32,000 bases of DNA from assembly GCF_000981785.2 (NCBI RefSeq), contig NZ_CP011304.1:3720001-3752000 (forward strand), given 5' to 3'. A program made the translations under genes and the position numbers. The stretch's first letter is position 1. Every line of letters begins with the position of its first letter. The stretch comes from Microcystis aeruginosa NIES-2549. Its GTDB lineage: Bacteria; Cyanobacteriota; Cyanobacteriia; Cyanobacteriales; Microcystaceae. Below the pieces are notes generated by a model, which was not told the origin of the DNA, did no database searches, and saw only the letters and a list, made by a program, of their open reading frames with translations. Below, one piece after another: positions 27-24,445 of the stretch.

Positions 27-2579
27 CTAAATGTCTTCAGATTCCTCGCCATCACTAGGGGGAACTAGGGCGACAGCAGCGATCGCATCGTCCTCATCGA
101 GTTTTTGTACCCGGATACCTCCGGCCGATCGCGATTGAGGAGTAATCGCATCGACGGATTGACGGATGATAATGCCCCGTTCGGTGATAATCATAAATTC
201 CTCGTTGGGGTTAACAACGTGCAGAGCCGCTAATTTATCGTTCTTTTTGCGGAATTTAATCACTCTGACTCCTAATCCCGCCCGATTTTGCAGACGTAGG
301 AGGGTAACGGGAACCCGTTTTCCTAGTCCTGCCATGGTAATTGCTAACACCCAGGGGCCATTATTAGCCACTTCGGGGTTAATTTCTTCGCTTTCGTCCT
401 CGGTTTCTTCTTGGTTAGATTCAGCGATTTGGGCGACAATTTGACTAGGCAGAATGTCCATACTAATTAATTCGTCACCTGAGCGCAATTTCATCGATTT
501 TACGCCTTTAGTTGCCCTTCCCAAGGAGCGCAATTGTTGACTATCGGCCTTAAAATGAATTGCCATCCCCTGACGAGAACCGATAATGACGCTATCTTCC
601 TCTTTAGCCAAGCGAACCCAACGCAGTTGATCACCGTCTTCGAGAGAAATGGCGATTAAACCGTTCGATCGAATATTACTAAAGGCAGCGAGGGCGGTTT
701 TCTTGATAAATCCCTTTTGTGTGAGCATAATCAGGTAATTATCCTCGCTGAACTCGCTGACTGCCACCACCGAGGTGATTTTCTCCCCTTTGGGAATCTC
801 TAACAGTTGCACGATGGGAACCCCGCGAGCGGTGCGGGAACCGGTGGGGATATGATAGGCATTGAGACTATAGACAACCCCGCGATCGGTGAAAAAGAGG
901 ACGCTATCGTGATCGCGGCAGGTGATAAAGTGATCGATGCCGTCGTCTTCTTTCATTTTTGCGCCAGCTTTGCCCCTTGTCGCCCGATTTTGGGACTCAA
1001 AGGTATTAACGGGCATTCTTTTGATGTAACCCTGTTCAGTGACGAGAATTAAGGCCTGTTCGTTGGCAATCAGGTCAGTTTCGGCGATTTCTCCTTCCCG
1101 TTGTTCAATATGACTGCGACGGGGGGTAGCGTGAATCGTTTTGATCTGTTGCAGTTCTTCCTCGATAATGCTGTCGATCCGTTCTTTTCTGGCTAAAATA
1201 TCCTGAAGATCGCCGATTTTTGTCAGTAATTCCCCGTGTTCTTGCTGAATTTTCTCCGATTCTAGGGCGGTTAACCGTCGCAGCTGCATTTGTAGGATTG
1301 CGTCCGCTTGCACCTCTGAAAGACCAAAATTCTGCACTAATCCCTCTTTTGCACTAGCTGTGTCGGCAGCACTGCGAATCAGGGCAATGACTGCATCGAG
1401 ACTAGCGAGGGCAATTAGTAAACCCTGAAGGAGATGATCTCTTTCCTCGGCCTTGCGGAGTTCATAACGGGTACGACGGGTGATAACTTCTAGGCGAAAA
1501 TCGAGGAAAACCCGGAGAAACTCCCTTAAAGTCAGTAATCTCGGTTCGTTATCGACTAATGCCAACATATTCGCCCCAAAATTGGACTGGAGGGGCGTTT
1601 GTTTATAAAGATTGTTGAGGACGACGCGGGGATAGGCATCTCGTTTCAGTTCGATCACCACCCGGATGCCGTCGCGATCGCTTTCGTCCCGCACATCGGA
1701 AATACCGTCTATTTTGCGATCATTGACCAAATCGGCGATTTTTTCGATTAATGCCGCTTTATTGGTTTGATAGGGCAGTTCGGTGATGATAATAGCATCT
1801 CGATCGGGTCTTCCCCTTTGTTCGATGGTTTCAATGGTGGCCACTCCCCGCAGGGTAATGGAACCGCGGCCGGTGGTGTAAGCTTCCTGAATGCCGTCTC
1901 TACCGAGGATATGTCCCCCGGTGGGAAAGTCCGGCCCTGGGATATAACGCTGTAATTCCGTATCGGTGAGATCGGGGTTATGGATGAGGGCAACGGTTCC
2001 ATCGATAATCTCGGCCAGGTTGTGGGGGGGGATATTGGTGGCCATCCCGACGGCGATACCCGATGAGCCATTAATTAGCAGTTGCGGGACTCTAGAGGGT
2101 AAAACCACGGGTTCCTGTTGGGAACCATCGAAGTTATCGGCAAAATCGACGGTTTCTGACTCGATATCCTGTAGTAGGGCGTTGGTGGCCAGGGTGTGCA
2201 GACGACACTCGGTATAACGCATGGCCGCCGGGGGATCGTTATCGATCGATCCGAAGTTACCATGACCGTTAATCAGGGGATCGCGCATGGAGAAATCCTG
2301 GGCCATGCGGACGAGAGCATCGTAAACGGCAGTATCCCCGTGGGGGTGGTATTTTCCTAATACTTCCCCGACGACTCTAGCGCATTTGCGGAAGGGGCGA
2401 TCGGGGGTTAATCCTAGTTCGTACATCGCGTAAAGAATGCGCCGGTGTACGGGTTTCAGTCCGTCCCTAGCGTCGGGCAAGGCTCGCCCAACGATGACGC
2501 TCATGGCGTATTCTAGGTAGGAACGGGACATTTCATTGCTTAAGTCTGTGGGGACGACATGATCCTGGGCGGCGGTCAT
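27..2579 (-). CDS. gyrA: DNA gyrase subunit A
   Basis: 850-aa ORF with ATG at 2579. It has the N-terminal GyrA signature [14 protein letters not shown], the QRDR-like [17 protein letters not shown] and the catalytic Tyr context AAMRYTE. The repeated C-terminal beta-pinwheel-like segments end in an acidic tail. Confidence 0.97.
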
Positions 2580-2825
2580 AGGGGGGTTAACTCCAATAAC
2601 AAGGCAAAAAAGCGTTTTTGTGATTAAATTCGCTAAAAGTCGGGTTTTTACCCTTTTGATGTGCAGAATATGCCCATTTGTACGACTATTTTACCATAAA
2701 ATCCCTCTTTTTTGGGGTTTGAGGCGGCACTCAAACTTTTGCCGAAAGTCTCTTCCCTCATTCGGGCCCGATCTTGACACTTTGTGGACTATCTGTCACA
2801 ATATTGTTATGTAGGACATTTGTTC

Positions 2826-3155
2826 TTAAAGTAATGGATTTGCAATTGTCATTATTTCTAAATCCTCCAATAAAGTCCGAAAACTATGCACGGGAAAGTT
2901 ATCTTGATTCCGTTTTTTCTCTTGAGGATTGATGATTCTTGCCCCAATCATCGCCACCACTAAGTTTCTGATTCGGGAGGATTTTTCACTGATTATTTTA
3001 TCTAAACCCAATTTTTTAATCGTCTCTAAAATAGCCATCACATGACCATGAGGAAGACTTCTAATCACTTCAAAGTGATCGGGAATGCCTTCATTCATTG
3101 ACAGTTTTGCCCCTTTGAAAGCCAGTTTCAGATTGTTGATATGGCGCTTTTCACG
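2826..3155 (-). pseudogene. IS1634/IS4-like transposase N-terminal remnant (truncated)
   Basis: The frame stays open from 3155 down to the stop at 2826, with no start upstream of the internal ATG at 3098. The segment FEVIRSLPHGHVMAILETIKKLGLDKIISEKSSRIRNLVVAMIGARIINPQ matches the conserved N-terminal region of IS1634-family transposases as I recall it (..RPHGHVAAVLG..LGL..II......LVVAMIVARIINPQSKLAT..). The similarity stops after NPQ. Only about 110 of the >500 aa expected are present. Confidence 0.55.
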
Positions 3156-3495
3156 TTACTGAGGTATCGACAAGTTTTGCCAACAAAGGGTTTAAGCCCC
3201 TTGCCCATGCCTCATTCTGATGAAAACTGCTATAGTCATTTCAATTAAGATTGAGAATATCAATGCCAGAGTTCATAAGGGTTTAACCAGTCTAGAGTGT
3301 ATCAGACTTATCTGGAATGACTATATATGACCGCCATTTTAGCCTAAACTTCTCCCACTTGTCTATTAAGAATTACAATAAACATGGGTACATCAAGAAA
3401 AGTTAATGGGTGTATCCATTGATGGATAAGGGTTTTTGGCTATTGTAGTAGATATGTATGGGGGAAGTTCAGGAATAGTGATAGAAACAAGAATT

Positions 3496-3528
3496 AAGCA
3501 GATTGCACCGTCCGGCAATCTGCTTTTC
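3496..3528. terminator. Stem-loop with flanking T runs (possible bidirectional intrinsic terminator)
   Basis: The stem is gcagattgc (3498-3506) paired with gcaatctgc (3515-3523), around an 8-nt loop. It is followed by ttttc on the + strand and by ttaattcttgttt on the - strand. It lies about 190 nt downstream of the stop of the Tyr-rich gene on the - strand. Confidence 0.35.
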
Positions 3529-3533
3529 ATTAC

Positions 3534-3650
3534 TATTCCTAACCTGAGTTCGGTTTAAGGGAATTTTGCCATAGCTTCCACGAAAGAATAGGAGTTTCAG
3601 GCTACGGTAGCATCAGGGTTTTAGCTTATCCCGAACTGAGGTTATTCCTA
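3534..3650. mobile_element. MITE-like element: 101-bp body, 12-bp terminal inverted repeats, 8-bp direct duplication
   Basis: The direct repeat tattccta occurs at 3534-3541 and 3643-3650. It immediately flanks the inverted termini acctgagttcgg (3542-3553) and ccgaactgaggt (3631-3642), which match at 11 of 12 complementary positions. The body has no coding capacity. Confidence 0.45.
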
Positions 3651-3719
3651 GCTTTTAGAGTTTGAAACCACCTAATCTCAAAGCCTAGTGCTATGCCACC
3701 TTGAAAGTCTATTCTACGG

Positions 3720-4532
3720 TTAGAATACTAGATCGGCCGAGTAGTAGTTGCTAAATAAGGCATCGCTGTTGTTGTAGGAGGAGTTGTAGGCAGAGCCATA
3801 CTCTGACCCTAGACCATAATAACCGCCATAGGATGAGACATTATAGGTGGTTGAGTAACTGGGTGTCCCGACTCCATCATAGTCCCCACCGCCATCATAG
3901 TAGCTGCTGACGTAGATGTTGGTGTTACTGCCACTATAACCCGTATCATAACCATAGTCATAGACGTAGTCGATGGAATAGGAGCCGTAGTTGTAGGTTT
4001 CGTTGTAGTAACCAGTCAGGTACTGTCCACTATAGTAGCCTAGAGAACTGTCTCCATAACCGTAACCCGTATAGGAGTCTCCGTTGCCATAGTAGTAGGT
4101 GTAACTGAAGTATATGTCGTTGCCACCACTGGTATCGGCCGAGTAGTAGTTGCTAAATAAGGCATCGCTGTTGTTGTAGGAGGAGTTGTAGGCAGAGCCA
4201 TACTCTGACCCTAGACCATAATAACCGCCATAGGATGAGACATTATAGGTGGTTGAGTAACTGGGTGTCCCGACTCCATCATAGTCCCCACCGCCATCAT
4301 AGTAGCTGCTGACGTAGATGTTGGTGTTACTGCCACTATAACCCGTATCATAACCATAGTCATAGACGTAGTCGATGGAATAGGAGCCGTAGTTGTAGGT
4401 TTCGTTGTAGTAACCAGTCAGGTACTGTCCACTATAGTAGCCTAGAGAACTGTCTCCATAACCATAACCCGTATAGGAGTCTCCGTTGCCATAGTAGTAG
4501 GTGTAACTGAAGTATATGTCGTTGCCAGCCAT
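3720..4532 (-). CDS. Tyr/Gly/Ser-rich acidic repeat protein of unknown family (two 134-aa units)
   Basis: 270-aa ORF with ATG at 4530-4532 and AGGA 8 nt upstream (mRNA ..ggugAGGAuuuaauauAUG). It is the only ORF of 60 aa or more in the supplied six-frame track across this TA-rich stretch. By hand count it is about 26% Tyr and has no K, R, H, C or W. I see no signal peptide or TM segment. Confidence 0.7.
   Translation of the reverse strand: MAGNDIYFSYTYYYGNGDSYTGYGYGDSSLGYYSGQYLTGYYNETYNYGSYSIDYVYDYGYDTGYSGSNTNIYVSSYYDGGGDYDGVGTPSYSTTYNVSSYGGYYGLGSEYGSAYNSSYNNSDALFSNYYSADTSGGNDIYFSYTYYYGNGDSYTGYGYGDSSLGYYSGQYLTGYYNETYNYGSYSIDYVYDYGYDTGYSGSNTNIYVSSYYDGGGDYDGVGTPSYSTTYNVSSYGGYYGLGSEYGSAYNSSYNNSDALFSNYYSADLVF
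3732..4527. repeat. Tandem direct duplication, period 402 bp (two 394-bp copies joined by 8 bp)
   Basis: Copy 3732-4125 and copy 4134-4527 align base for base at an offset of 402. I found one mismatch (4062 g versus 4464 a), which is a synonymous TAC/TAT Tyr codon on the coding strand. The 8-bp junction is ccactggt (4126-4133). Confidence 0.95.
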
Positions 4533-4816
4533 ATATTAAATCCTCACCAGATAATGAGAAAAGAAAGTTATGAAACAAGAGATGCCGAGCGTTTTTTATA
4601 CTAGCCAGACGCTCCGAATCTCAGAGGGGACAGAGGAGTATTTAGGGTTTGAATTAGGTTAGGGACAATTTTCCTCCCCCTCGTCCTATCCTACACCAAA
4701 TATTAAATGGTAATCTTTAACATTTATGTAGATTATGCTGAAAAAGACTGAAATGCCTATAGGAAAAAGGTTTCGACTCAATAAAGTCTAGAAGAAAGGC
4801 ACAAAAAAGGGTAACT

Positions 4817-4889
4817 GCCGAGGCTGACGGGGTGACAAGCAGATTGAAAGTGAGACACTAGGCTTCAACCTCGTTGTCACCCCTTCGGC
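4817..4889 (+). promoter_or_regulatory. Structured leader upstream of the small ORF and ureD
   Basis: A 10-bp stem pairs ggggtgacaa (4829-4838) with ttgtcacccc (4874-4883). It can be extended by gccgag (4817-4822) paired with ttcggc (4884-4889), leaving a 6-nt bulge and a 35-nt loop. The structure ends 17 nt before the GTG at 4906. Confidence 0.3.
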
Positions 4890-4905
4890 TAGTTTAGTTG
4901 TTCGG

Positions 4906-5088
4906 GTGACGAAACCCCATCTGGTTTATCAAAAATTCGAGCTAAAAAATCCTCTCCTGGTCGGCAAAAAAGCGGAAAGTGAATATATTTTACTGATCAG
5001 GGATAAAGAACAGCAAATAGAAGTTAAAATTAATCTCAGTCCCGAAAATTATCGGCAATTTCTAGAAACCATGACTGAGGAACAATAA
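4906..5088 (+). CDS. Small hypothetical protein translationally coupled to ureD
   Basis: 60-codon ORF with a GTG start. Its composition looks protein-like (..LVYQKFELKNPLLVGKKAESEYILLIRDKEQQIEVKINLSPENYRQFLE..). Its TAA stop overlaps the ureD ATG by 1 nt (TAATG at 5086-5090). I recognise no family. Confidence 0.4.
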   Translation: MTKPHLVYQKFELKNPLLVGKKAESEYILLIRDKEQQIEVKINLSPENYRQFLETMTEEQ

Positions 5089-5900
5089 TGTGGCAGGGAA
5101 ACCTAGAACTAATTTACAAGCAAAAAAATCTCGCAACCGAGATTAATCACGTCTATGCTACCGCCCCTTTAAAAGTACAAAGACCTTTTTATCCCGAAGG
5201 AAAAAACCTTTGTCATACGGTGATTTTACACACTGCGGGGGGAATAGTTGGCGGTGATGTTCTGCAACAAAAAATTCATCTCCAAGCCGCTACTAATGCC
5301 CTGATTACCACTGCTTCTGCTGGAAAAGTTTACCAGAGTAACGGTCAGATGGCACAGCAATTAATCGAGATTAAAATCGATGACAATGCCAGTTTAGAAT
5401 GGCTACCCCAAGAAACAATTATCTTTAATGGTGCGGCATTTCGCCAACATTTACGAGTGGATTTAGGGGAAAATAGCAGTTGGTTGGGATGGGAAATTAC
5501 CCGTTTTGGTCGCAGTGCGCGAGGGGAGAAATTTTTAGCGGGAGAATGGCATTCTAATTGGGAAATTTGGCGCTCAGGACAACCTTTATGGCTCGATCGA
5601 TCCTGCCTGTTGGGTGGTAAAATGATCGAGGGATTTTCTGGTTTAAATGATAGCGCCCTGATCGGTACTTTAGTTTATATCGGTCAACCGGTGGGCAGAA
5701 ATTTAATCGAGAAAGTGAGAGATTTTTCCCTAGAAGGAGAGATGGGAGTTACTAGCACTTTAGGAGATGGTCTTTTATGTCGTTATCGGGGTAATTCTAG
5801 CGGTGAAGTGCGACAATGGTTTCAGCAGGTTTGGCAAATTTTAAGGCGAGAAATGAGCGATCGAGAGGCAATTATTCCGCGAGTTTGGTTATCTTGGTAA
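5088..5900 (+). CDS. ureD: Urease accessory protein UreD
   Basis: 270 aa with UreD/UreH-like motifs: PLKVQRPFYPEG, HTAGGIVGGD and a TTASAGKVY core. No other ure genes are adjacent, which is common in cyanobacteria. Confidence 0.88.
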   Translation: MWQGNLELIYKQKNLATEINHVYATAPLKVQRPFYPEGKNLCHTVILHTAGGIVGGDVLQQKIHLQAATNALITTASAGKVYQSNGQMAQQLIEIKIDDNASLEWLPQETIIFNGAAFRQHLRVDLGENSSWLGWEITRFGRSARGEKFLAGEWHSNWEIWRSGQPLWLDRSCLLGGKMIEGFSGLNDSALIGTLVYIGQPVGRNLIEKVRDFSLEGEMGVTSTLGDGLLCRYRGNSSGEVRQWFQQVWQILRREMSDREAIIPRVWLSW

Positions 5901-6074
5901 AAGCGGCGGCTCTCCCCGGTTTGGTGGGTAAAATGTATTCTAAGATACAGTCTTGCGGGCGAGTGAGTGAAACGAACCACTCCAGACACAAAGGACACAG
6001 AGATCGATCACTACTATATAAGTTAAACTGATCACACAAAGAATAAGAGAGCCGGGCGGTCAATTTTAATTTTT

Positions 6075-7016
6075 TCAAGTCACTTGAATGCCTGTATCGG
6101 TGATTGGCGCTATCCAAAATTGTAGATCGGGAGCGACGAGAATTTCCCGGGCTTTTTTAACGATGGTTTCCGCCACTTCCTGAGATGAACAGAGAGTAAA
6201 AACCGTCGGGCCAGAGCCTGACATCATCGTTCCCAAGCCGCCTAAATCGCCCAGAACCTGTCTTAACTCGGCTACGAGGGGAAATTCGGGTAAAACCACC
6301 TTTTCGAGGTCATTGTGGATAAATTTGCCGATAGCGGCTGGTTTTTTCTGGGCGATCGCTTGTACCAAAGCCCCGGAACTCACCTGCTGACGGCGGTGAT
6401 GAAAGTCCTCTGGAGAAGACAGATAGGTATCTTGAAATTTTTGCCGATAGCTTTGGTAGGCCCAGGGTGTAGAAACGGATAAATGATCGTATTTGGCTAA
6501 AATCACCCATAATCCGGTTAGAGGAGCGATCGGATCGAGAATTTCTCCCCTTCCCGTACAGATAACCGTTCCTCCTGTCACACAAAAGGAAGTATCGGAT
6601 CCCAATCTTGCCGCTAAAGTTTCTAATTCCGGACGGGTTAACCCTAATTCCCAGATTAAATCGATGCCAACTAACACCGCCGCCGCGTTGGTGGAACCCC
6701 CCGCTAAACCGGCAGCCACGGGAATATATTTCTCGATGATGATATCGATGCCGCCGTAATTGGCAAAGAGGCGGGGGAATTCCCTCGCCATCAAAGTGGC
6801 GGCCCGATGGGCGAGATTACTGCTATCTTGGGGGACGAGGGGATGAGAGCAAAAGAGGCGGAATTCCTGCAATCCGTTGGGCCGGAGAGTGATGCGATCG
6901 CATAATGCCACCGTCTGCATCACCATGACTAACTCGTGGAAACCATCAGGGCGATCGCCAACGATTTCTAGATATAAGTTAATTTTAGCGGGGGCTAGAA
7001 GGGTATAACTGTGCAT
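6075..7016 (-). CDS. ispE: 4-diphosphocytidyl-2-C-methyl-D-erythritol kinase
   Basis: 313 aa with an N-terminal APAKINLYLEIVGDRPDGFHEL motif and the GHMP-kinase motif PVAAGLAGGSTNAAA. Confidence 0.95.
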   Translation of the reverse strand: MHSYTLLAPAKINLYLEIVGDRPDGFHELVMVMQTVALCDRITLRPNGLQEFRLFCSHPLVPQDSSNLAHRAATLMAREFPRLFANYGGIDIIIEKYIPVAAGLAGGSTNAAAVLVGIDLIWELGLTRPELETLAARLGSDTSFCVTGGTVICTGRGEILDPIAPLTGLWVILAKYDHLSVSTPWAYQSYRQKFQDTYLSSPEDFHHRRQQVSSGALVQAIAQKKPAAIGKFIHNDLEKVVLPEFPLVAELRQVLGDLGGLGTMMSGSGPTVFTLCSSQEVAETIVKKAREILVAPDLQFWIAPITDTGIQVT

Positions 7017-7033
7017 TTGTCAAGAAAAAAAAT

Positions 7034-7840
7034 CTAAAATTTTGGTAATTGACCTAATTTTTCCGCCAAGTCAATCCATTGCGATAAACTGAGATCTTCG
7101 GCGCGAGCGAGGGGATTAATTTCTAATTGTGTCAGGATTTGGCTTAATCGATCGCTATCCAGACAATTTTTTAGATTATTGCGTAACATTTTGCGCCGGT
7201 TGGCAAAACCCCAGCTAATTAAAGTGGACAAAAAGGCAGCATTACTGACATTATTCGGCAAAACACGGGGTAAAAGCTGAATTACCGCCGAATCCACCTG
7301 GGGAGGTGGGGAAAAGGCCCGCCGGGGGACATCACAAATCCATTGACAATCGGCAAGGTATTGAATGCGGACGCTGAGAGCGCTGTAAGCTTTGGTGGAG
7401 GGGACAGCGACTAATCTTTCGGCGACTTCTTTCTGGACTAAGAGGGTAATACTCTGGTACGGGGGGGTGAAGGGATGGGCGATCGAACCGAGCAGCTTTT
7501 CGAGGATCGGACCGGTGATATTATAGGGAATATTAGCCACTACTTTATTAACCGGCGGCAGTTGCTCCGGTTTAAGGCTAAGAAAGTCGCCCGGGATGAG
7601 ATGAAAGTTATCTTGTTGGCCAAATTTTTTATTTAAAATTGTCCATAGATCTCGATCGATTTCTACAGCGACAACCAATTGAGCGCCATCGAGAAGACGA
7701 CGGGTTAAAATGCCTGTACCCGGGCCGATTTCTAATACCCGATCCTCTGATTGTAAATTAGCGGCTCCGATGATGCGATCAAGTATCGATTCATCTTTTA
7801 ACCAATGTTGTCCAAAACGTTTACGCGGTTGAATTTTCAT
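7034..7840 (-). CDS. rsmA: 16S rRNA (adenine1518/1519-N6)-dimethyltransferase
   Basis: 268 aa with the KsgA/RsmA N-terminus RKRFGQHWL, the SAM motif VLEIGPGTGILT and NIPYNITGPIL. Confidence 0.95.
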   Translation of the reverse strand: MKIQPRKRFGQHWLKDESILDRIIGAANLQSEDRVLEIGPGTGILTRRLLDGAQLVVAVEIDRDLWTILNKKFGQQDNFHLIPGDFLSLKPEQLPPVNKVVANIPYNITGPILEKLLGSIAHPFTPPYQSITLLVQKEVAERLVAVPSTKAYSALSVRIQYLADCQWICDVPRRAFSPPPQVDSAVIQLLPRVLPNNVSNAAFLSTLISWGFANRRKMLRNNLKNCLDSDRLSQILTQLEINPLARAEDLSLSQWIDLAEKLGQLPKF

Positions 7841-7964
7841 ACCTCTATTTTAAAATCAGAGGGTTGTCCTCGACAATAACACCCCTGAAAATATGGGCCA
7901 TGCGATCGATAACCGCATCAATTATCATAGAGCCTAGACAAAGATAGCAAAAAAATTAGATACA

Positions 7965-8354
7965 ATGTCAGATTTGAACGATGTTTTCGCAATTGTAGCC
8001 GGAGCGGTTCCGGGGGCGTTATCTCGTTATCATATTACCGAATGGACAAAAGCAAAATTCGGCTTGCGCTTTCCATCTGGAACCTTTATTATTAACTTAA
8101 CCGGCTGTCTAGCTATCGGTTTCTTTTTGGCTATTTTACCCAGTTTTCCCTTTTATTCCCACGAACTAGATTTAATGGTGAGAACCGGATTTTTAGGAGC
8201 CTATACCACCTTTTCTACCTATAGTTTAGATATCCTGATACTCTGGCGCAATCAACAAAATTTTCTCAGTCTTTTTTTTGCCGTTGCTAGTATCATTTTC
8301 GGATTGATTGCCGTGAGAATTGGGGCAGCTATTGCCCAAGTTTTTCTAGGTTAA
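7965..8354 (+). CDS. crcB: Fluoride channel CrcB/FluC, paralog 1
   Basis: 129 aa with four predicted TM segments and the CrcB motifs GALSRY, GTFIINLTGC and GFLGAYTTFSTYSLD. Confidence 0.9.
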   Translation: MSDLNDVFAIVAGAVPGALSRYHITEWTKAKFGLRFPSGTFIINLTGCLAIGFFLAILPSFPFYSHELDLMVRTGFLGAYTTFSTYSLDILILWRNQQNFLSLFFAVASIIFGLIAVRIGAAIAQVFLG

Positions 8355-8394
8355 TTCTCCAATTTATTGAATATTGAAGGGCAGGAGAGACAGC

Positions 8395-16825: not shown

Positions 16826-18160
16826 ATGTTTAACTGGTTCCGTCGTCAGAAAGTCCAACCCGAACAAGAACAAGCACCCCCCGCACCCGTAGAGGAAACC
16901 GCCAGCGAGGCAACCAGTCAGGAAGAGTATTTAGATTGGGCCAAAAAAGCCTTTAAAAATATTCAAGAGAAAAAAGCCACGGCCGAGGCCGTCGTGAGCG
17001 AAACCCCTGAAACATCTATTGCTGAAACAGAACCTCCGCAAGAGGAAGAACCAGTTAAAGAAGAAGAAACCGAGGATAATACCCCCGCATGGCTGAAAAA
17101 ATCCGATCGCCTCGAAATTCTCAAAGAAACCGCCATCGAAACCCCCACAGAACCAGATGAGGATTTTATCTGGTCGGCCAAAGTTTTAGCCAATCAGGGA
17201 CGACAAGCAGAGGACGTTTCCGAAGAAGAAATCACCTGGTTAAAAAAATTGCGTCAGGGTTTAGGCAAAACGCGTCGCAGCTTGGTCAATCAGCTTAAGG
17301 CCGTGGTCGGTCAGGGTCCCCTCAATCAAGATGCAGTGGAGGAAATCGAAGCTTTATTGCTTCAGGCCGATGTGGGGGTAGATGCCACCGATTATATTAT
17401 CACTACCCTCCAAAATAAGCTAAAACAGGAAGCTCTGCCCCCCGAAAAAGCGATCGAATATCTCAAAGAAATTATCCGCGAGATTTTAGATGCACCTTTA
17501 GCCAATTATAGCAACCCCGGTTTTGAGCCAGAAAAAGGTAAATTAAATATCTGGATGCTCACAGGAGTTAACGGAGTCGGTAAAACGACGACTATCGGCA
17601 AATTAGCTCATTTATCTAAACAATCTGGCTATAGTTGTATAATCGCCGCTGCCGACACCTTTCGCGCTGCTGCCGTGGAACAGGTGAAAGTTTGGGGAGA
17701 GCGATCGCAAGTCGAAGTAATTGCCAACCCGGGCAAAAATACCGACCCAGCCGCCGTGGTGTACGATGGCATCGAAGCCGCTAAATCCAGGGAGGTAGAA
17801 TTACTCTTAGTGGATACGGCGGGAAGATTGCAGAATAAAAAGAACTTAATGGCAGAATTAAGCAAAATTCGCCGCATTATCGACAAAAAAGCCGAGAGTG
17901 CCGTGGTGGAATCCCTTCTAGTTCTCGATGCCACTTTAGGACAAAACGGGCTGCGACAAGCAGAAGTTTTCTCGGAAGCTGCCCAATTAAGCGGCGTGAT
18001 CCTGACTAAAATCGATGGTACAGCTAAAGGGGGTGTCGCCCTTGCCGTAGCGCGTCAGCTTAACCTCCCGATTCGCTTTGTCGGCGCCGGGGAAGGAATC
18101 GAGGATCTGCGGCCCTTTTCCAGTTACGAATTCGTGGAAGCTTTACTGAGTGGCGATTGA
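16826..18160 (+). CDS. ftsY: Signal recognition particle receptor FtsY
   Basis: An acidic N-terminal A-domain is followed by the NG domain with GVNGVGKTTTIGKLA, DTAGRLQNK and TKIDGTAKGG. Confidence 0.96.
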   Translation: MFNWFRRQKVQPEQEQAPPAPVEETASEATSQEEYLDWAKKAFKNIQEKKATAEAVVSETPETSIAETEPPQEEEPVKEEETEDNTPAWLKKSDRLEILKETAIETPTEPDEDFIWSAKVLANQGRQAEDVSEEEITWLKKLRQGLGKTRRSLVNQLKAVVGQGPLNQDAVEEIEALLLQADVGVDATDYIITTLQNKLKQEALPPEKAIEYLKEIIREILDAPLANYSNPGFEPEKGKLNIWMLTGVNGVGKTTTIGKLAHLSKQSGYSCIIAAADTFRAAAVEQVKVWGERSQVEVIANPGKNTDPAAVVYDGIEAAKSREVELLLVDTAGRLQNKKNLMAELSKIRRIIDKKAESAVVESLLVLDATLGQNGLRQAEVFSEAAQLSGVILTKIDGTAKGGVALAVARQLNLPIRFVGAGEGIEDLRPFSSYEFVEALLSGD

Positions 18161-22908: not shown

Positions 22909-23245
22909 TTTTTCCCGTTAGGATGCCAATTAACCACTGATTCTAATATAGCGATCAGAGCGGGTTTCTGCTTTTTGGCTCTGGGAGACTCAATCTGGTC
23001 TTTATGATCGAGAAAAATAGAAGCAGTTAAACTCATCTCTTATCTCTTAGTCTTGCCTTTGGTCAAATAGTCGCCATCAAGACAGAGACAAGCGATCGGC
23101 GAAACCTTCCGGTAGATTAGACTAAATGGGAGTTGGTTAACTGCTTTTATAAAATTGATTGTTCCCTAACCATCAGCATTGTCTAGGGTCGAAGGGAATA
23201 AAACAACCGAAGTTTAGGACTTTAAGCCAGAAGTTAAGGGGAACA

Positions 23246-24445
23246 GTGAAATTATTATTTTTGAGTAATGGCCACGGTGAAGATGAGATCGCGATCCGGA
23301 TTATTAAAAGACTGCAATCATCTCCCCACTGTCCGGATATTACTGCTTTACCCCTAGTGGGTAACGGTTATGCTTATACTCGTCTGGGGATTCCCCTTCT
23401 CGATCGAGGTCAAAAAATGCCCTCTGGGGGTTTTATAACTAGGGATGTCAAACAATTATGGCGAGATCTACGGGAGGGATTATTAGGATTAACCTCCCGT
23501 CAATACCGTCTGGTCAGAAATTGGGGCCAAGAAGGGGGAAAAATTGTCGCGGTGGGAGATATCTTACCCCTTGCCCTTGCTTGGTTGAGCGAGACAGATT
23601 ATGCTTTTGTGGGAACGGCTAAATCAGAATACTATCTCCGGGATGAGCAGGGATGGTTAGATAGTAGCTCGATGATCGATCGCCTCTGGGGTTCCTACTA
23701 TTATCCCTGGGAACGCTGGTTAATGGCTCATCCTCGCTGTCGGGGGGTTTTTCCCCGGGATAGTTTAACTAGCAAAATTTTACAACAGTGGTCAATTCCC
23801 GTTGTCGATGGGGGTAATCCGATGATGGATGACCTTTTACCCTCGATAACGGGCGATTTTCCCCAAGATTGCCTAAATATTCTGCTGCTACCCGGTTCGC
23901 GCTTTCCCGAATCTCTCCACAATTGGCAGAAAATTCTCGCAGCTGTGGCGGCCATGATTGGACGTTTTCCCGATTATAAGCTGGAATTTTTGGCAGCGAT
24001 CGCTCCTTCTCTCCCCCCGGAATCTTTTACGGCTGCTTTAACTTCCCAGGGTTGGCGAGAACATAGCACAAATAAGTTTATTTGTCAAGAGGTATTTATA
24101 ACTATTTCTCAAAGGGATTACGCCGAATATTTAGGCCGTTGCCATTTAGCGATCGCCATGGCGGGAACTGCCACGGAACAGTTCGTCGGTTTGGGTAAAC
24201 CGGCGATCACAATTGCGGGATCTGGACCACAGTTTACTGCTCATTTTGCCAAACTGCAACAGCGTTTATTAGGCTGTTCAATTCTCTTGGGCGATAGTGC
24301 CGAGTCAGTGGCAGACAAGTTAGAATATTTATTACAAAATCCCCCAAAGTGGCAAGAAATCGCCTTTAATGGTCGTCAGAGAATGGGGGCAGCCGGGGCC
24401 TCCGATCGCATTGCCCAATGGTTACTAGGCAATTTTTGCCCTTAA
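23246..24445 (+). CDS. Lipid-A-disaccharide synthase-related protein (cyanobacterial conserved family)
   Basis: The N-terminus LLFLSNGHGEDEIAIRII and the GT-B-like C-terminus (AMAGTATEQFVGLGKP) match the LpxB-related conserved hypothetical family as I recall it. I prefer the GTG at 23246, which has AAGGGGA upstream, over the TTG at 23159 in the track. Confidence 0.7.
   Translation: MKLLFLSNGHGEDEIAIRIIKRLQSSPHCPDITALPLVGNGYAYTRLGIPLLDRGQKMPSGGFITRDVKQLWRDLREGLLGLTSRQYRLVRNWGQEGGKIVAVGDILPLALAWLSETDYAFVGTAKSEYYLRDEQGWLDSSSMIDRLWGSYYYPWERWLMAHPRCRGVFPRDSLTSKILQQWSIPVVDGGNPMMDDLLPSITGDFPQDCLNILLLPGSRFPESLHNWQKILAAVAAMIGRFPDYKLEFLAAIAPSLPPESFTAALTSQGWREHSTNKFICQEVFITISQRDYAEYLGRCHLAIAMAGTATEQFVGLGKPAITIAGSGPQFTAHFAKLQQRLLGCSILLGDSAESVADKLEYLLQNPPKWQEIAFNGRQRMGAAGASDRIAQWLLGNFCP

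What the first reader, a model, noticed from the sequence alone, without database searches (positions are those of the whole stretch)
3720..4532. Tyr/Gly/Ser-rich acidic protein with no Lys, Arg or His and no family I can name
This is a 270-aa minus-strand ORF with an ATG start and an AGGA Shine-Dalgarno core 8 nt upstream. It is the only ORF of 60 aa or more in the supplied six-frame track across 813 nt. The DNA here is saturated with TA dinucleotides that close the other frames, which argues for selection on this frame. By hand count each 134-aa unit has about 35 Tyr, roughly a quarter of its residues. The rest is mostly G, S, N, D and T. There is no Lys, Arg, His, Cys or Trp, and Met occurs only at position 1. 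The sole positive charge is therefore the N-terminus, while D and E make the protein strongly acidic. Dense [GS]Y[GS], YY and YxY motifs recall eukaryotic FUS-like low-complexity or tyrosine-rich structural proteins rather than any bacterial family I recognise. I see no signal peptide, lipobox or TM segment. The gene sits in an IS- and MITE-scarred islet between the core genes gyrA and ureD. Possible roles, by inference only, are a self-assembling, amyloid or phase-separating protein, a dityrosine-cross-linkable sheath or colony-matrix component, or a cation-binding protein.
Basis: partly seen in the sequence, partly recalled or inferred. Interest (0 to 1): 0.8.

Follow-up and report, generated by a model that had tools for sequence, protein, structure and literature searches.

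The report
Tyrosine-rich secreted repeat-domain protein, undescribed family
This is a real Microcystis gene whose product is two copies of a conserved, confidently folded, tyrosine-packed acidic domain that no database describes. The domain otherwise sits in large secreted surface proteins, so the product is probably an exported cell-surface or colony-matrix protein rather than a disordered, FUS-like one.

Summary
Window 3720-4532(-) encodes 270 aa with 26% Tyr and no K, R, H, C or W. It consists of two 402-nt units that differ at one internal base.

This is not a low-complexity region. Each unit is a ~125-aa domain conserved at specific positions: F/Y-x-F/Y-T-Y-x-Y-G-N-G-D … NETG..GYY.I … V.V.SYYD … GLGSE.G … (E/S)AD.

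- **Family size:** a profile search of 1.84 billion protein representatives found 367, mostly cyanobacterial.
- **Fold:** AlphaFold2 gives an all-β fold at pLDDT 89.9. It has no match in PDB, BFVD, Pfam or NCBIfam.
- **Location:** relatives carry Sec signal peptides or RTX C-termini and are fused to cadherin, Calx-β, Big_9, VWD, subtilase and dockerin-like modules. In Azotobacter and Pseudomonas the domain-only gene lies beside a complete type I secretion operon.
- **Selection:** dN/dS against strain Chao 1910 is 0.16-0.25.
- **Copy number:** Microcystis alleles keep the same start and stop with 1, 2, 3 or about 15 units.
- **Genomic setting:** the gene sits in a strain-variable islet of M. 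aeruginosa NIES-2549. NIES-843 has a methylase cassette there instead.

Best reading: an exported, multivalent surface or matrix protein, probably Ca2+-stabilised. Function and export in Microcystis are inferred, not shown.

The parts
3720..4532 (-). CDS of the 270-aa Tyr/Gly/Ser-rich acidic protein (stop codon included). It starts MAGNDIYFSY and ends YYSADLVF*.
   Evidence: The same N- and C-termini occur in Microcystis alleles with 1, 2, 3 and ~15 units.
4134..4514 (-). Domain copy 1 (residues 7-133) of the undescribed Tyr-rich 'YGNGD...GLGSE...EAD' β-domain.
   Evidence: Family HMM domain E = 7e-43. Predicted strands at residues 5-13, 19-27, 37-42, 48-58, 70-79, 93-95, 98-101, 111-114 and 125-127.
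3732..4112 (-). Domain copy 2 (residues 141-267). It is a near-identical recent duplicate of copy 1.
   Evidence: (one internal nucleotide difference).
4541..4544 (-). AGGA Shine-Dalgarno core, 8 nt upstream of the ATG.
   Evidence: Read directly.
4533..4701 (-). 5' leader and putative promoter region. It is conserved upstream of both Tyr-rich genes of strain Chao 1910.
   Evidence: blastn: window 3732-4701 aligns with L001 14018-13006, and window 3732-5904 aligns with L001 6384-4171. The promoter function is inferred.
3496..3525 (-). Terminator-like hairpin followed by a T-rich tail, about 195 nt downstream of the stop codon.
   Evidence: This is a consensus match only, and the number found is not above the shuffle expectation.
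2859..4887 (.). Strain-variable islet that carries the gene. It replaces the methylase/HTH cassette and the 5' part of a 174-aa gene found at this site in NIES-843.
   Evidence: blastn against NIES-843 (L029): homology at ~97.8% stops at window 2858 and resumes at 4888.
2826..3098 (-). 90-aa transposase fragment inside the islet, annotated 'Mobile element protein' AKE66089.1.
4906..5088 (+). 60-aa ORF (AKE66091.1). It is the 3' remnant of a 174-aa conserved hypothetical gene, truncated at the islet edge.

Best explanation
The ORF is a genuine protein-coding accessory gene of Microcystis aeruginosa NIES-2549. Its product consists only of two tandem copies of an undescribed, conserved, ~125-aa all-β domain.

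**Domain character.** Its core is built from alternating aromatic residues. It has five near-invariant acidic positions (D18, E44, D79, E110, D133) set in Gly-rich turns.

**Where it acts.** The domain is an extracellular module. The domain-only proteins have no Sec signal. They are most likely exported in one step by an ABC-transporter (type I-like) pathway and fold outside the cell, probably stabilised by Ca2+ at the conserved acidic turns.

**What it does.** Outside the cell, the head-to-tail domains would form a multivalent rod that binds or cross-links surface or mucilage components. Its length is reset by unequal recombination between units (1 to ~15 or more copies among strains). The Microcystis lineage has additionally covered the variable positions with Tyr and removed all basic residues.

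**Shown:** coding and selection, domain family, predicted fold, extracellular family context, secretion-gene linkage in relatives, and copy-number polymorphism.

**Inferred:** export route in Microcystis, Ca2+ binding, and the matrix or adhesion role.
For: **Coding and under selection**
- Homologues at 40-85% identity keep the frame.
- dN/dS is 0.16-0.25 against Chao 1910 units.
- NNC codon preference is 60% against 37% in 14 neighbouring genes, p = 6e-6.

**A domain, not a low-complexity region**
- 13 invariant and 15 near-invariant columns in 41 units.
- 590 domain hits in 184 proteins.
- 367 family representatives with E <= 1e-3, of which 83 have E <= 1e-30.

**Folded**
- AlphaFold2 two-unit model: pLDDT 89.9, all five models at 87.9 or higher, nine β-strands per unit.

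**Extracellular**
- Fusion partners are Cadherin, Big_9, Calx-beta, VWD, Peptidase_S8, Dockerin_1, HemolysinCabind (RTX), Lectin_C and CARDB.
- Many members carry N-terminal signal peptides.

**ABC/T1SS linkage**
- Azotobacter chroococcum and Pseudomonas oryzagri share the order domain-only gene, 89-aa gene, ABC transporter, AprE-type MFP, S8 peptidase, OEP.
- Chlorogloea and one metagenome contig have a C39-ABC transporter plus a PPIase next to the gene.
- The product has pI 4.05, no Cys and no N-terminal signal. Acidic pI and an uncleaved C-terminal rather than N-terminal signal are general T1SS-substrate traits, and lack of Cys is noted there for RTX S-layer proteins (PMC3034196).

**Copy-number alleles**
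- Intact alleles share identical termini: 143 aa (1 unit), 270/272/285 aa (2 units) and 427 aa (3 units). Chao 1910 has about 15 and at least 9 units.
- The NIES-2549 assembly is PacBio at 123x coverage, so two units is not a short-read collapse.

**Lineage-specific Tyr enrichment**
- Only 9 of 35 Tyr per unit sit at family-aromatic positions, and 20 sit at positions that are under 50% aromatic in the family.
Against: - No T1SS genes lie within the 32-kb window.
- Most homologous loci also lack an adjacent transporter.
- The protein has no RTX nonapeptide repeats and no recognisable anchor or ligand-binding domain.
- Both Chao 1910 copies contain frame breaks as assembled, so the gene may be decaying in some strains.
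- No transcript, peptide or biochemical data were available.
- The exact protein is absent from a 15-billion-protein collection, so it may not even be annotated in this form.
Confidence: 0.55

Rival explanations
1. One reading: an intrinsically disordered, FUS-like low-complexity protein that self-assembles by phase separation or as an amyloid through [GS]Y[GS] motifs.
For: Composition only: 26% Y, 17% G, 17% S and many GY/YG/SY dipeptides.
Against: - AlphaFold2 predicts ordered β-domains at pLDDT 89.9.
- Non-Tyr positions are strictly conserved at fixed sites (G22, I53, D79, L107, S109, E110, A132, D133).
- The family median Tyr content is only 16%, and most members do contain K, R or H. The fold therefore does not depend on the extreme composition.
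- The domain is embedded in ordinary secreted multidomain proteins.
Confidence: 0.06
2. A decaying remnant. The two-unit gene is a contracted, non-functional leftover of a once giant repeat gene, sitting in an IS-scarred islet and neither expressed nor needed.
For: - The islet contains a transposase fragment and truncates a neighbouring gene.
- The Chao 1910 copies carry -2, -2 and -1 nt frame breaks.
- The locus is absent from NIES-843.
- The exact protein is not on record in the collections.
Against: - Start codon, SD, frame and stop are intact here and in the 1-, 2- and 3-unit alleles of several strains.
- dN/dS is well below 1.
- NNC codon bias is stronger than in housekeeping neighbours.
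- The Chao 1910 frame breaks may be long-read consensus errors in a 27-copy array. This could not be tested.
Confidence: 0.2
3. A lectin-like carbohydrate-binding module array. The aromatic-rich surface binds extracellular polysaccharide, so the protein is mainly a glycan cross-linker rather than a structural rod. This is a specific sub-mechanism of the best explanation.
For: - 20 of 35 Tyr per unit lie at variable positions, which are presumably on the surface.
- Relatives are fused to Lectin_C, a weak below-threshold match to the GH123 N-terminal domain, and dockerin-like modules.
- The size (~125 aa, all-β) is typical of CBMs. This point is from general knowledge.
Against: - No structural similarity to any CBM or lectin in the PDB.
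- No sequence match to Pfam CBM families.
- No glycan-active enzyme is consistently adjacent.
Confidence: 0.2
4. A cytoplasmic protein, such as a cation buffer or storage protein. It has no signal peptide, so it stays inside the cell.
For: There is no Sec/Tat signal, lipobox or TM segment, and no transporter in the window.
Against: - Every informative family context is extracellular.
- T1SS operons are adjacent in distant domain-only homologues that also lack signal peptides.
Confidence: 0.05
5. Not a gene: a chance open frame in a tandem DNA repeat.
For: It is a near-perfect 402-nt tandem duplication, and the exact product is not in the protein collections.
Against: Frame-preserving homologues occur across cyanobacteria, Proteobacteria and Verrucomicrobiota MAGs. 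dN/dS is 0.16-0.25.
Confidence: 0.02

Closest known systems
Giant repeat adhesins secreted by type I systems (RTX adhesins such as SiiE, MpIBP, LapA) and cyanobacterial RTX surface proteins
   Same: - Head-to-tail arrays of ~100-130-aa β-domains.
- Acidic, Cys-free, with no N-terminal signal.
- Some family members end in RTX repeats (P0033, P0038).
- T1SS operons are adjacent in Azotobacter and Pseudomonas.
- Copy number is variable.
   Different: - The repeated domain is not an Ig-like BIg or cadherin fold by Foldseek.
- The window protein has no RTX repeats, no retention module and no ligand-binding tip domain.
- No T1SS genes lie nearby.
FUS-like / prion-like [G/S]Y[G/S] low-complexity domains
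   Same: Gly/Ser/Tyr-dominated composition with few charged residues other than acidic ones.
   Different: Predicted ordered β-fold, position-specific conservation, bacterial extracellular context, and a 134-aa unit rather than degenerate short motifs.
Carbohydrate-binding modules and bacterial lectin domains
   Same: Small all-β extracellular modules, aromatic-rich, often Ca2+-dependent, often tandem and fused to dockerins, peptidases or Ig-like domains.
   Different: No sequence or structural match to any CBM or lectin. Glycan binding is untested.
Functional amyloid subunits (CsgA, FapC)
   Same: Secreted, repeat-built, β-rich, Gly/Ser/Asn/Tyr-enriched matrix proteins.
   Different: - Those repeats are ~20-35 aa strand-turn-strand units, and the subunits have a Sec signal and dedicated csg/fap secretion genes.
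- Here the unit is 134 aa and is predicted to be a globular domain.
- There is no Sec signal, and no csg/fap-family hits among the window ORFs that were scanned.

Membership tests
Undescribed Tyr-rich 'YGNGD-GLGSE-EAD' β-domain family (defined here from 41 to 329 units) | The full set of conserved blocks in order: [FY]x[FY]TYxYGNGDxYxG, NE(T)G..GYY.I, V.V.SYYD, GLGSE.G, (E/S)AD. | tested here: met
   Both window units match the family HMM end to end, each with E = 7e-43. Invariant columns are listed and per-position conservation.
Undescribed Tyr-rich 'YGNGD-GLGSE-EAD' β-domain family | Predicted all-β fold of about nine strands per unit. | tested here: met
   pLDDT 89.9 for the two-unit model. 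The same strand order appears in the single-unit model at pLDDT 70.7.
RTX / type I secretion substrates | Gly/Asp-rich nonapeptide GGxGxDxUx repeats (Pfam HemolysinCabind). | tested here: not met
   No HemolysinCabind hit in the window protein. It is present in relatives P0033 and P0038.
RTX / type I secretion substrates | No N-terminal signal peptide, acidic pI, few or no Cys. | tested here: met
   pI 4.05, no Cys, maximum hydropathy -0.19. The general properties are taken from PMC3034196.
RTX / type I secretion substrates | Genetic linkage to an ABC transporter, MFP and outer-membrane factor. | tested here: not met
   None in the 32-kb window. Linkage is present for the domain-only homologues of Azotobacter chroococcum and Pseudomonas oryzagri.
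RTX / type I secretion substrates | Functional uncleaved C-terminal secretion signal. | not testable with these tools
   T1SS signals have no reliable sequence consensus. The tail ...SADLVF is conserved among Microcystis alleles, but that is not proof.
FUS-like prion-like low-complexity domains | Intrinsic disorder, with no stable fold. | tested here: not met
   No residue has pLDDT below 50, and there are 18 predicted β-strands.
FUS-like prion-like low-complexity domains | Composition-level conservation without positional conservation. | tested here: not met
   13 invariant columns across genera. E110 is 99% conserved, D133 100% and G22 99%.
Ig-like (BIg/cadherin) extender domains of repeat adhesins | Ig-like or cadherin β-sandwich fold. 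| tested here: not met
   Foldseek against the PDB: best E = 0.64 and TM <= 0.15 for the pLDDT-90 model. There were no Pfam Big_*/Cadherin hits on the units.
Ig-like (BIg/cadherin) extender domains of repeat adhesins | Ca2+ bound by acidic residues at inter-domain junctions. | tested here: inconclusive
   Near-invariant D18, E44, D79, E110 and D133 lie in turns or at strand ends.
Carbohydrate-binding modules | Sequence or structural similarity to a CAZy CBM or lectin fold. | tested here: not met
   Binding itself is not testable here.

The most novel reading that the evidence does not exclude
The unit is a previously unseen protein fold: it has no PDB or BFVD neighbour even at pLDDT 90. Cyanobacteria would use it as an extracellular building block. 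In Microcystis it has been pushed to an extreme, with 26% Tyr and no basic residue, and forms a domain-only polymer. On this reading, the strain-variable unit number (1 to 15 or more) would tune mucilage or colony cohesion through Ca2+-bridged or oxidative dityrosine cross-linking, or would vary a phage or grazer target on the surface.
Probability: 0.2. Interest if true: 0.85.

Novelty: new variant of a known kind. Interest (0 to 1): 0.62.

Why it matters
- **An uncurated family.** At least 367 clusters at 50% identity, with proteins up to 3,677 aa, carry an extracellular domain that Pfam, NCBIfam and the PDB do not cover. The confident predicted fold has no structural neighbour. It is a good target for structure determination and for a new family entry.
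- **A testable link to bloom biology.** Microcystis blooms depend on colony and mucilage formation, and the protein components of that matrix are poorly known. A secreted, multivalent, trypsin-proof, Tyr-coated protein with strain-variable length is a concrete candidate to test.
- **A practical warning.** The gene is hard to assemble from short reads, since many homologues are 'partial' at contig ends. Tryptic proteomics cannot see it. It has probably been overlooked systematically.

Tried and rejected
- **Pfam on the ORF:** the only hit was Ribosomal_S5 at 21.8 bits, below its 27.1 cut-off. I rejected it as compositional noise.
- **NCBIfam:** nothing for the ORF. A sub-threshold choice_anch_D hit fell in the non-repeat part of P0016.
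- **PDB sequence profile search:** 0 hits at E <= 1.
- **Foldseek:** three searches (single-unit model against PDB, two-unit model against PDB and BFVD) gave no hit with E <= 0.001. The best hits were LolA-like or β-barrel chains with TM <= 0.19. AFDB was not available.
- **Rfam around the locus:** only a noise-level mir-6302 match. Across the whole window, only one tRNA.
- **Mobile-element sources:** no homologues in viral contigs, GenBank phages or PLSDB plasmids.
- **Literature:** five full-text searches on tyrosine-rich, Microcystis, T1SS, exoproteome and Chao 1910 found nothing about this domain.
- **Double-glycine leader for C39-ABC export:** only P0002 has an N-terminal ...SSGG. The others start directly with the domain, so I rejected this as a general feature.
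- **The D + hydrophobic C-terminal tail (ADLVF) as a T1SS signal:** members that have Sec signal peptides also end right after EAD. The tail therefore marks the end of the domain and is not evidence for a signal.
- **Short-read collapse as the cause of two units:** rejected, because the assembly is PacBio with a 20-kb library at 123x coverage.
- **Exact-sequence look-ups of the 270-aa protein:** not on record. Whether AKE66090.1, the only unassigned accession between AKE66089 and AKE66091, is this ORF could not be verified.
Full report
**1. The observation**

The ORF at 3720-4532 (-) exists as described. It is 270 aa with an ATG start and an AGGA core 8 nt upstream.

- Composition is Y 25.9%, G 17.4%, S 16.7%, N 8.1%, D 8.1% and T 7.0%. 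There is no K, R, H, C or W, and Met occurs once.
- It is a tandem duplication of a 402-nt unit (TRF: 2.0 copies, 99% matches). Apart from the ends, the two units differ at one base.
- pI is 4.05, MW 29.9 kDa, and the most hydrophobic 19-residue window scores -0.19. There is therefore no signal peptide or TM segment.
- No other ORF of 60 aa or more overlaps it.

**2. Source organism and locus**

The neighbouring proteins are identical to Microcystis aeruginosa NIES-2549 entries: GyrA AKE66088.1, a 90-aa 'mobile element protein' AKE66089.1, a 60-aa hypothetical AKE66091.1, UreD AKE66092.1 and IspE AKE66093.1.

That genome was assembled from PacBio reads of a 20-kb library at 123x coverage (PMC4447913). 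The two-unit count is therefore not a short-read collapse.

Compared with strain NIES-843, homology at about 97.8% stops at window 2858 and resumes at 4888. NIES-843 carries a DNA methylase, a 241-aa gene, an HTH gene and an intact 174-aa gene at this site.

The Tyr-rich gene therefore lies in a 2-kb strain-specific islet. The insertion left only a 60-aa remnant of the 174-aa gene.

**3. It is a gene**

A word-indexed search of 5.8 billion proteins returned 27 homologues, all unnamed. The named ones among them come from Microcystis, Synechococcaceae and Sphaerospermopsis.

In strain Chao 1910 the syntenic locus (crcB-crcB-ksgA-ispE-ureD-60aa) holds a 27.5-copy array of 420-429-nt units.

- One gene starts MAGNDIYFSY and ends YYSADLVF after about 15 units.
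- A second copy of at least 9 units follows, beyond an IS fragment.

Between window units and Chao 1910 units, dN is 0.076-0.083 and dS is 0.32-0.47, giving dN/dS of 0.16-0.25.

Other Microcystis alleles keep the same first and last residues with 1 unit (143 aa, strain MC19), 2 units (272 and 285 aa) and 3 units (427 aa, BLCCF158).

A caveat: the first Chao 1910 gene is split by -2, -2 and -1 nt frame changes, and the second also shifts frame near its end. I could not tell assembly error from real decay.

The ORF prefers NNC over NNT codons far more than 14 other genes in the window (60% against 37%, p = 6e-6). That fits either high expression or foreign origin.

**4. It is a domain, not low complexity**

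I aligned 41 units from different proteins.

- Thirteen columns are invariant: Y8, Y10, Y16, G18, Y47, I49, Y73, D75, L103, S105, E106, A128 and D129 in unit numbering.
- Fifteen more are at least 90% conserved.
- A profile of this alignment was scored against every one of 1.84 billion representatives. It found 367 proteins at E <= 1e-3 and 83 at E <= 1e-30, up to 3,677 aa long and with up to 16 units.
- A genome scan placed the family mainly in cyanobacteria: Chlorogloea, Dolichospermum, Anabaena, Snowella, Geminocystis, Calothrix, Leptolyngbya and Coleofasciculaceae.
- There are outliers in Azotobacter, Pseudomonas, Methylobacter, Sulfuricaulis, an alphaproteobacterial MAG and a Terrimicrobiaceae MAG.

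Across 329 full units the median composition is 16% Y, 3.5% K+R+H and 11% D+E. The window units are the extreme of the family.

Only 9 of their 35 Tyr sit where the family is at least 80% aromatic. Twenty sit where the family is under 50% aromatic. The Microcystis lineage has therefore specifically 'tyrosinised' variable positions and purged basic residues.

**5. Fold**

| Model | Alignment depth | Mean pLDDT | pTM |
|---|---|---|---|
| One unit | 41 sequences | 70.7 | 0.72 |
| Full two-unit protein | 48 two-unit rows | 89.9 | 0.70 |

- All five models of the two-unit run scored 87.9 or higher, and no residue fell below 50.
- Each unit has five long antiparallel strands followed by four short ones.
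- The conserved GNGD and NETx motifs form hairpin turns.
- D79 ends strand 5 and E110 precedes strand 8.

Foldseek found nothing in the PDB for either model (best E = 3.5 and 0.64, TM <= 0.19) and nothing in BFVD. A PDB sequence-profile search, Pfam and NCBIfam were also empty. AFDB was not available. 'No known fold' is therefore limited to solved structures and viral models.

**6. Where the domain works**

Family members combine the domain with Cadherin, Cadherin_4, Big_9, Big_13, Calx-beta, VWD, DUF4114, Peptidase_S8, Peptidase_C2, CARDB, Lectin_C, Dockerin_1-like EF-hand pairs and RTX nonapeptide repeats.

Many have classical N-terminal signal peptides, for example P0036, P0046, P0050-53 and P0058-59. 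Others, including all domain-only proteins, start directly with the first strand (M[ST]DL[FY]xFTYxYGNGD) and stop a few residues after EAD. Every informative context is extracellular.

**7. Export route**

In Azotobacter chroococcum DSM 2286 and Pseudomonas oryzagri the gene order is conserved. A domain-only gene is followed by an 89-aa gene, a 704-720-aa ABC transporter with an N-terminal extension, an AprE-type membrane-fusion protein, an S8 peptidase and a TolC-like OEP. Identity between the two genera is 56-71%.

In Chlorogloea CCALA 695 and one metagenome contig, a Peptidase_C39-ABC transporter and a PPIase lie within 3 kb.

The product's acidity, lack of Cys and lack of an N-terminal signal fit what is described for type I substrates (PMC3034196).

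Against this, the window protein has no RTX repeats. The 32-kb window encodes only housekeeping genes such as glycogen phosphorylase, MoaA, FtsY, MnmG and cytochrome bd. Most other loci show no adjacent transporter. I therefore rate ABC/T1SS export as the most likely route, at about 45%, but unproven.

**8. Mechanism proposed**

*Shown:*
- A selected gene made only of two folded copies of an extracellular domain.
- Hypervariable unit number.
- Five near-invariant acidic residues in Gly-rich turns.

*Inferred:*
- The chain is exported unfolded by an ABC system and folds outside the cell, probably on binding Ca2+ at those acidic turns.
- It acts as a short multivalent rod that binds or cross-links surface or mucilage components.
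- Unequal recombination between near-identical units changes its valency.
- The absence of Lys and Arg would make it immune to trypsin-like proteases.
- The Tyr-coated surface would suit glycan stacking or oxidative dityrosine cross-linking. These last two points are speculation.

**9. Rivals**

- **FUS-like disorder, LLPS or amyloid:** contradicted by the fold prediction, the positional conservation and the family context (about 6%).
- **Decaying remnant:** remains possible (about 20%) given the IS-scarred islet and the Chao 1910 frame breaks. Intact alleles, dN/dS and codon bias argue against it.
- **Lectin or CBM-like role:** a plausible sub-mechanism without direct support.
- **Cytoplasmic role, or not a gene:** unlikely.

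**10. Novelty and verdict**

The general kind is known: secreted proteins built from tandem β-domains, often exported by type I systems. The repeated domain itself is not described in Pfam (2025 copy), NCBIfam r20, the PDB or the searchable literature. Its predicted fold has no solved neighbour.

I classify it as a new variant of a known kind, with interest 0.62. Its 'no family, extracellular matrix or cation-binding' suggestions survive as hypotheses. Its FUS-like, phase-separation framing does not.

Noticed in passing
window 2859-4887, compared with L029 (NIES-843 AP009552.1) 5577-8324: The gyrA-ureD intergenic site is a swap hot spot. NIES-843 holds a DNA methylase (387 aa), a 241-aa ORF and an HTH protein, which looks like a restriction-modification-type cassette. 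NIES-2549 and Chao 1910 hold the Tyr-rich gene(s) and IS debris instead.
   Followed up: partly
window 4906-5088 (+): The 60-aa 'hypothetical protein' AKE66091.1 is the 3' remnant of a 174-aa conserved Microcystis gene (for example BAG00272.1 in NIES-843). It was truncated at the islet boundary and is still annotated as a gene.
   Followed up: yes
window 4823-4889: A 26-nt inverted repeat (81% complementary, 15-nt loop) ends exactly at the right edge of the islet (4887/4888). It could be a MITE end or a recombination scar.
   Followed up: no
L001 (Chao 1910 CP097576.1) 5545-17239: A 27.5-copy array of 420-429-nt units forms two Tyr-rich genes separated by an IS fragment (12311-12640). The first gene has -2, -2 and -1 nt frame breaks and the second has a late frameshift. 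These are either real decay or long-read consensus errors.
   Followed up: partly
L027/L018 (Azotobacter chroococcum) 9366-16818 and L014 (Pseudomonas oryzagri) 124-6961: A conserved operon: Tyr-rich domain-only gene, an 89-91-aa unknown gene (84-90% identical between the two genera), ABC transporter, AprE-type MFP, S8 peptidase and OEP. The small conserved protein and the embedded subtilase are unexplained. The Azotobacter gene contains an assembly gap (run of N) inside the repeat.
   Followed up: partly
L025 6219-9487 and L004 3782-7062: An 837-aa ABC transporter with a Peptidase_C39 domain and a long N-terminal extension, plus a PPIase (Rotamase), is conserved next to domain-only Tyr-rich genes in two cyanobacterial genomes.
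   Followed up: no
window 7965-8354 and 8374-8799 (+): Two tandem crcB (fluoride channel) genes. No fluoride riboswitch or any other Rfam family reached threshold upstream. The only RNA hit in the whole window is a tRNA at 11927-12000 (-).
   Followed up: partly
window 23159-24445 (+): A 428-aa ORF with a TTG start has no Pfam match at E <= 1e-5. Its neighbours are ordinary housekeeping genes.
   Followed up: no
window 3809-3961, 4040-4201, 4211-4363 (-): Same-strand, out-of-frame ORFs of 50-53 aa inside the gene translate to Thr/Met/Pro/Val-rich strings. They are by-products of the Tyr-codon-rich repeat and not separate genes. Similar shadow ORFs appear in the homologous loci.
   Followed up: partly
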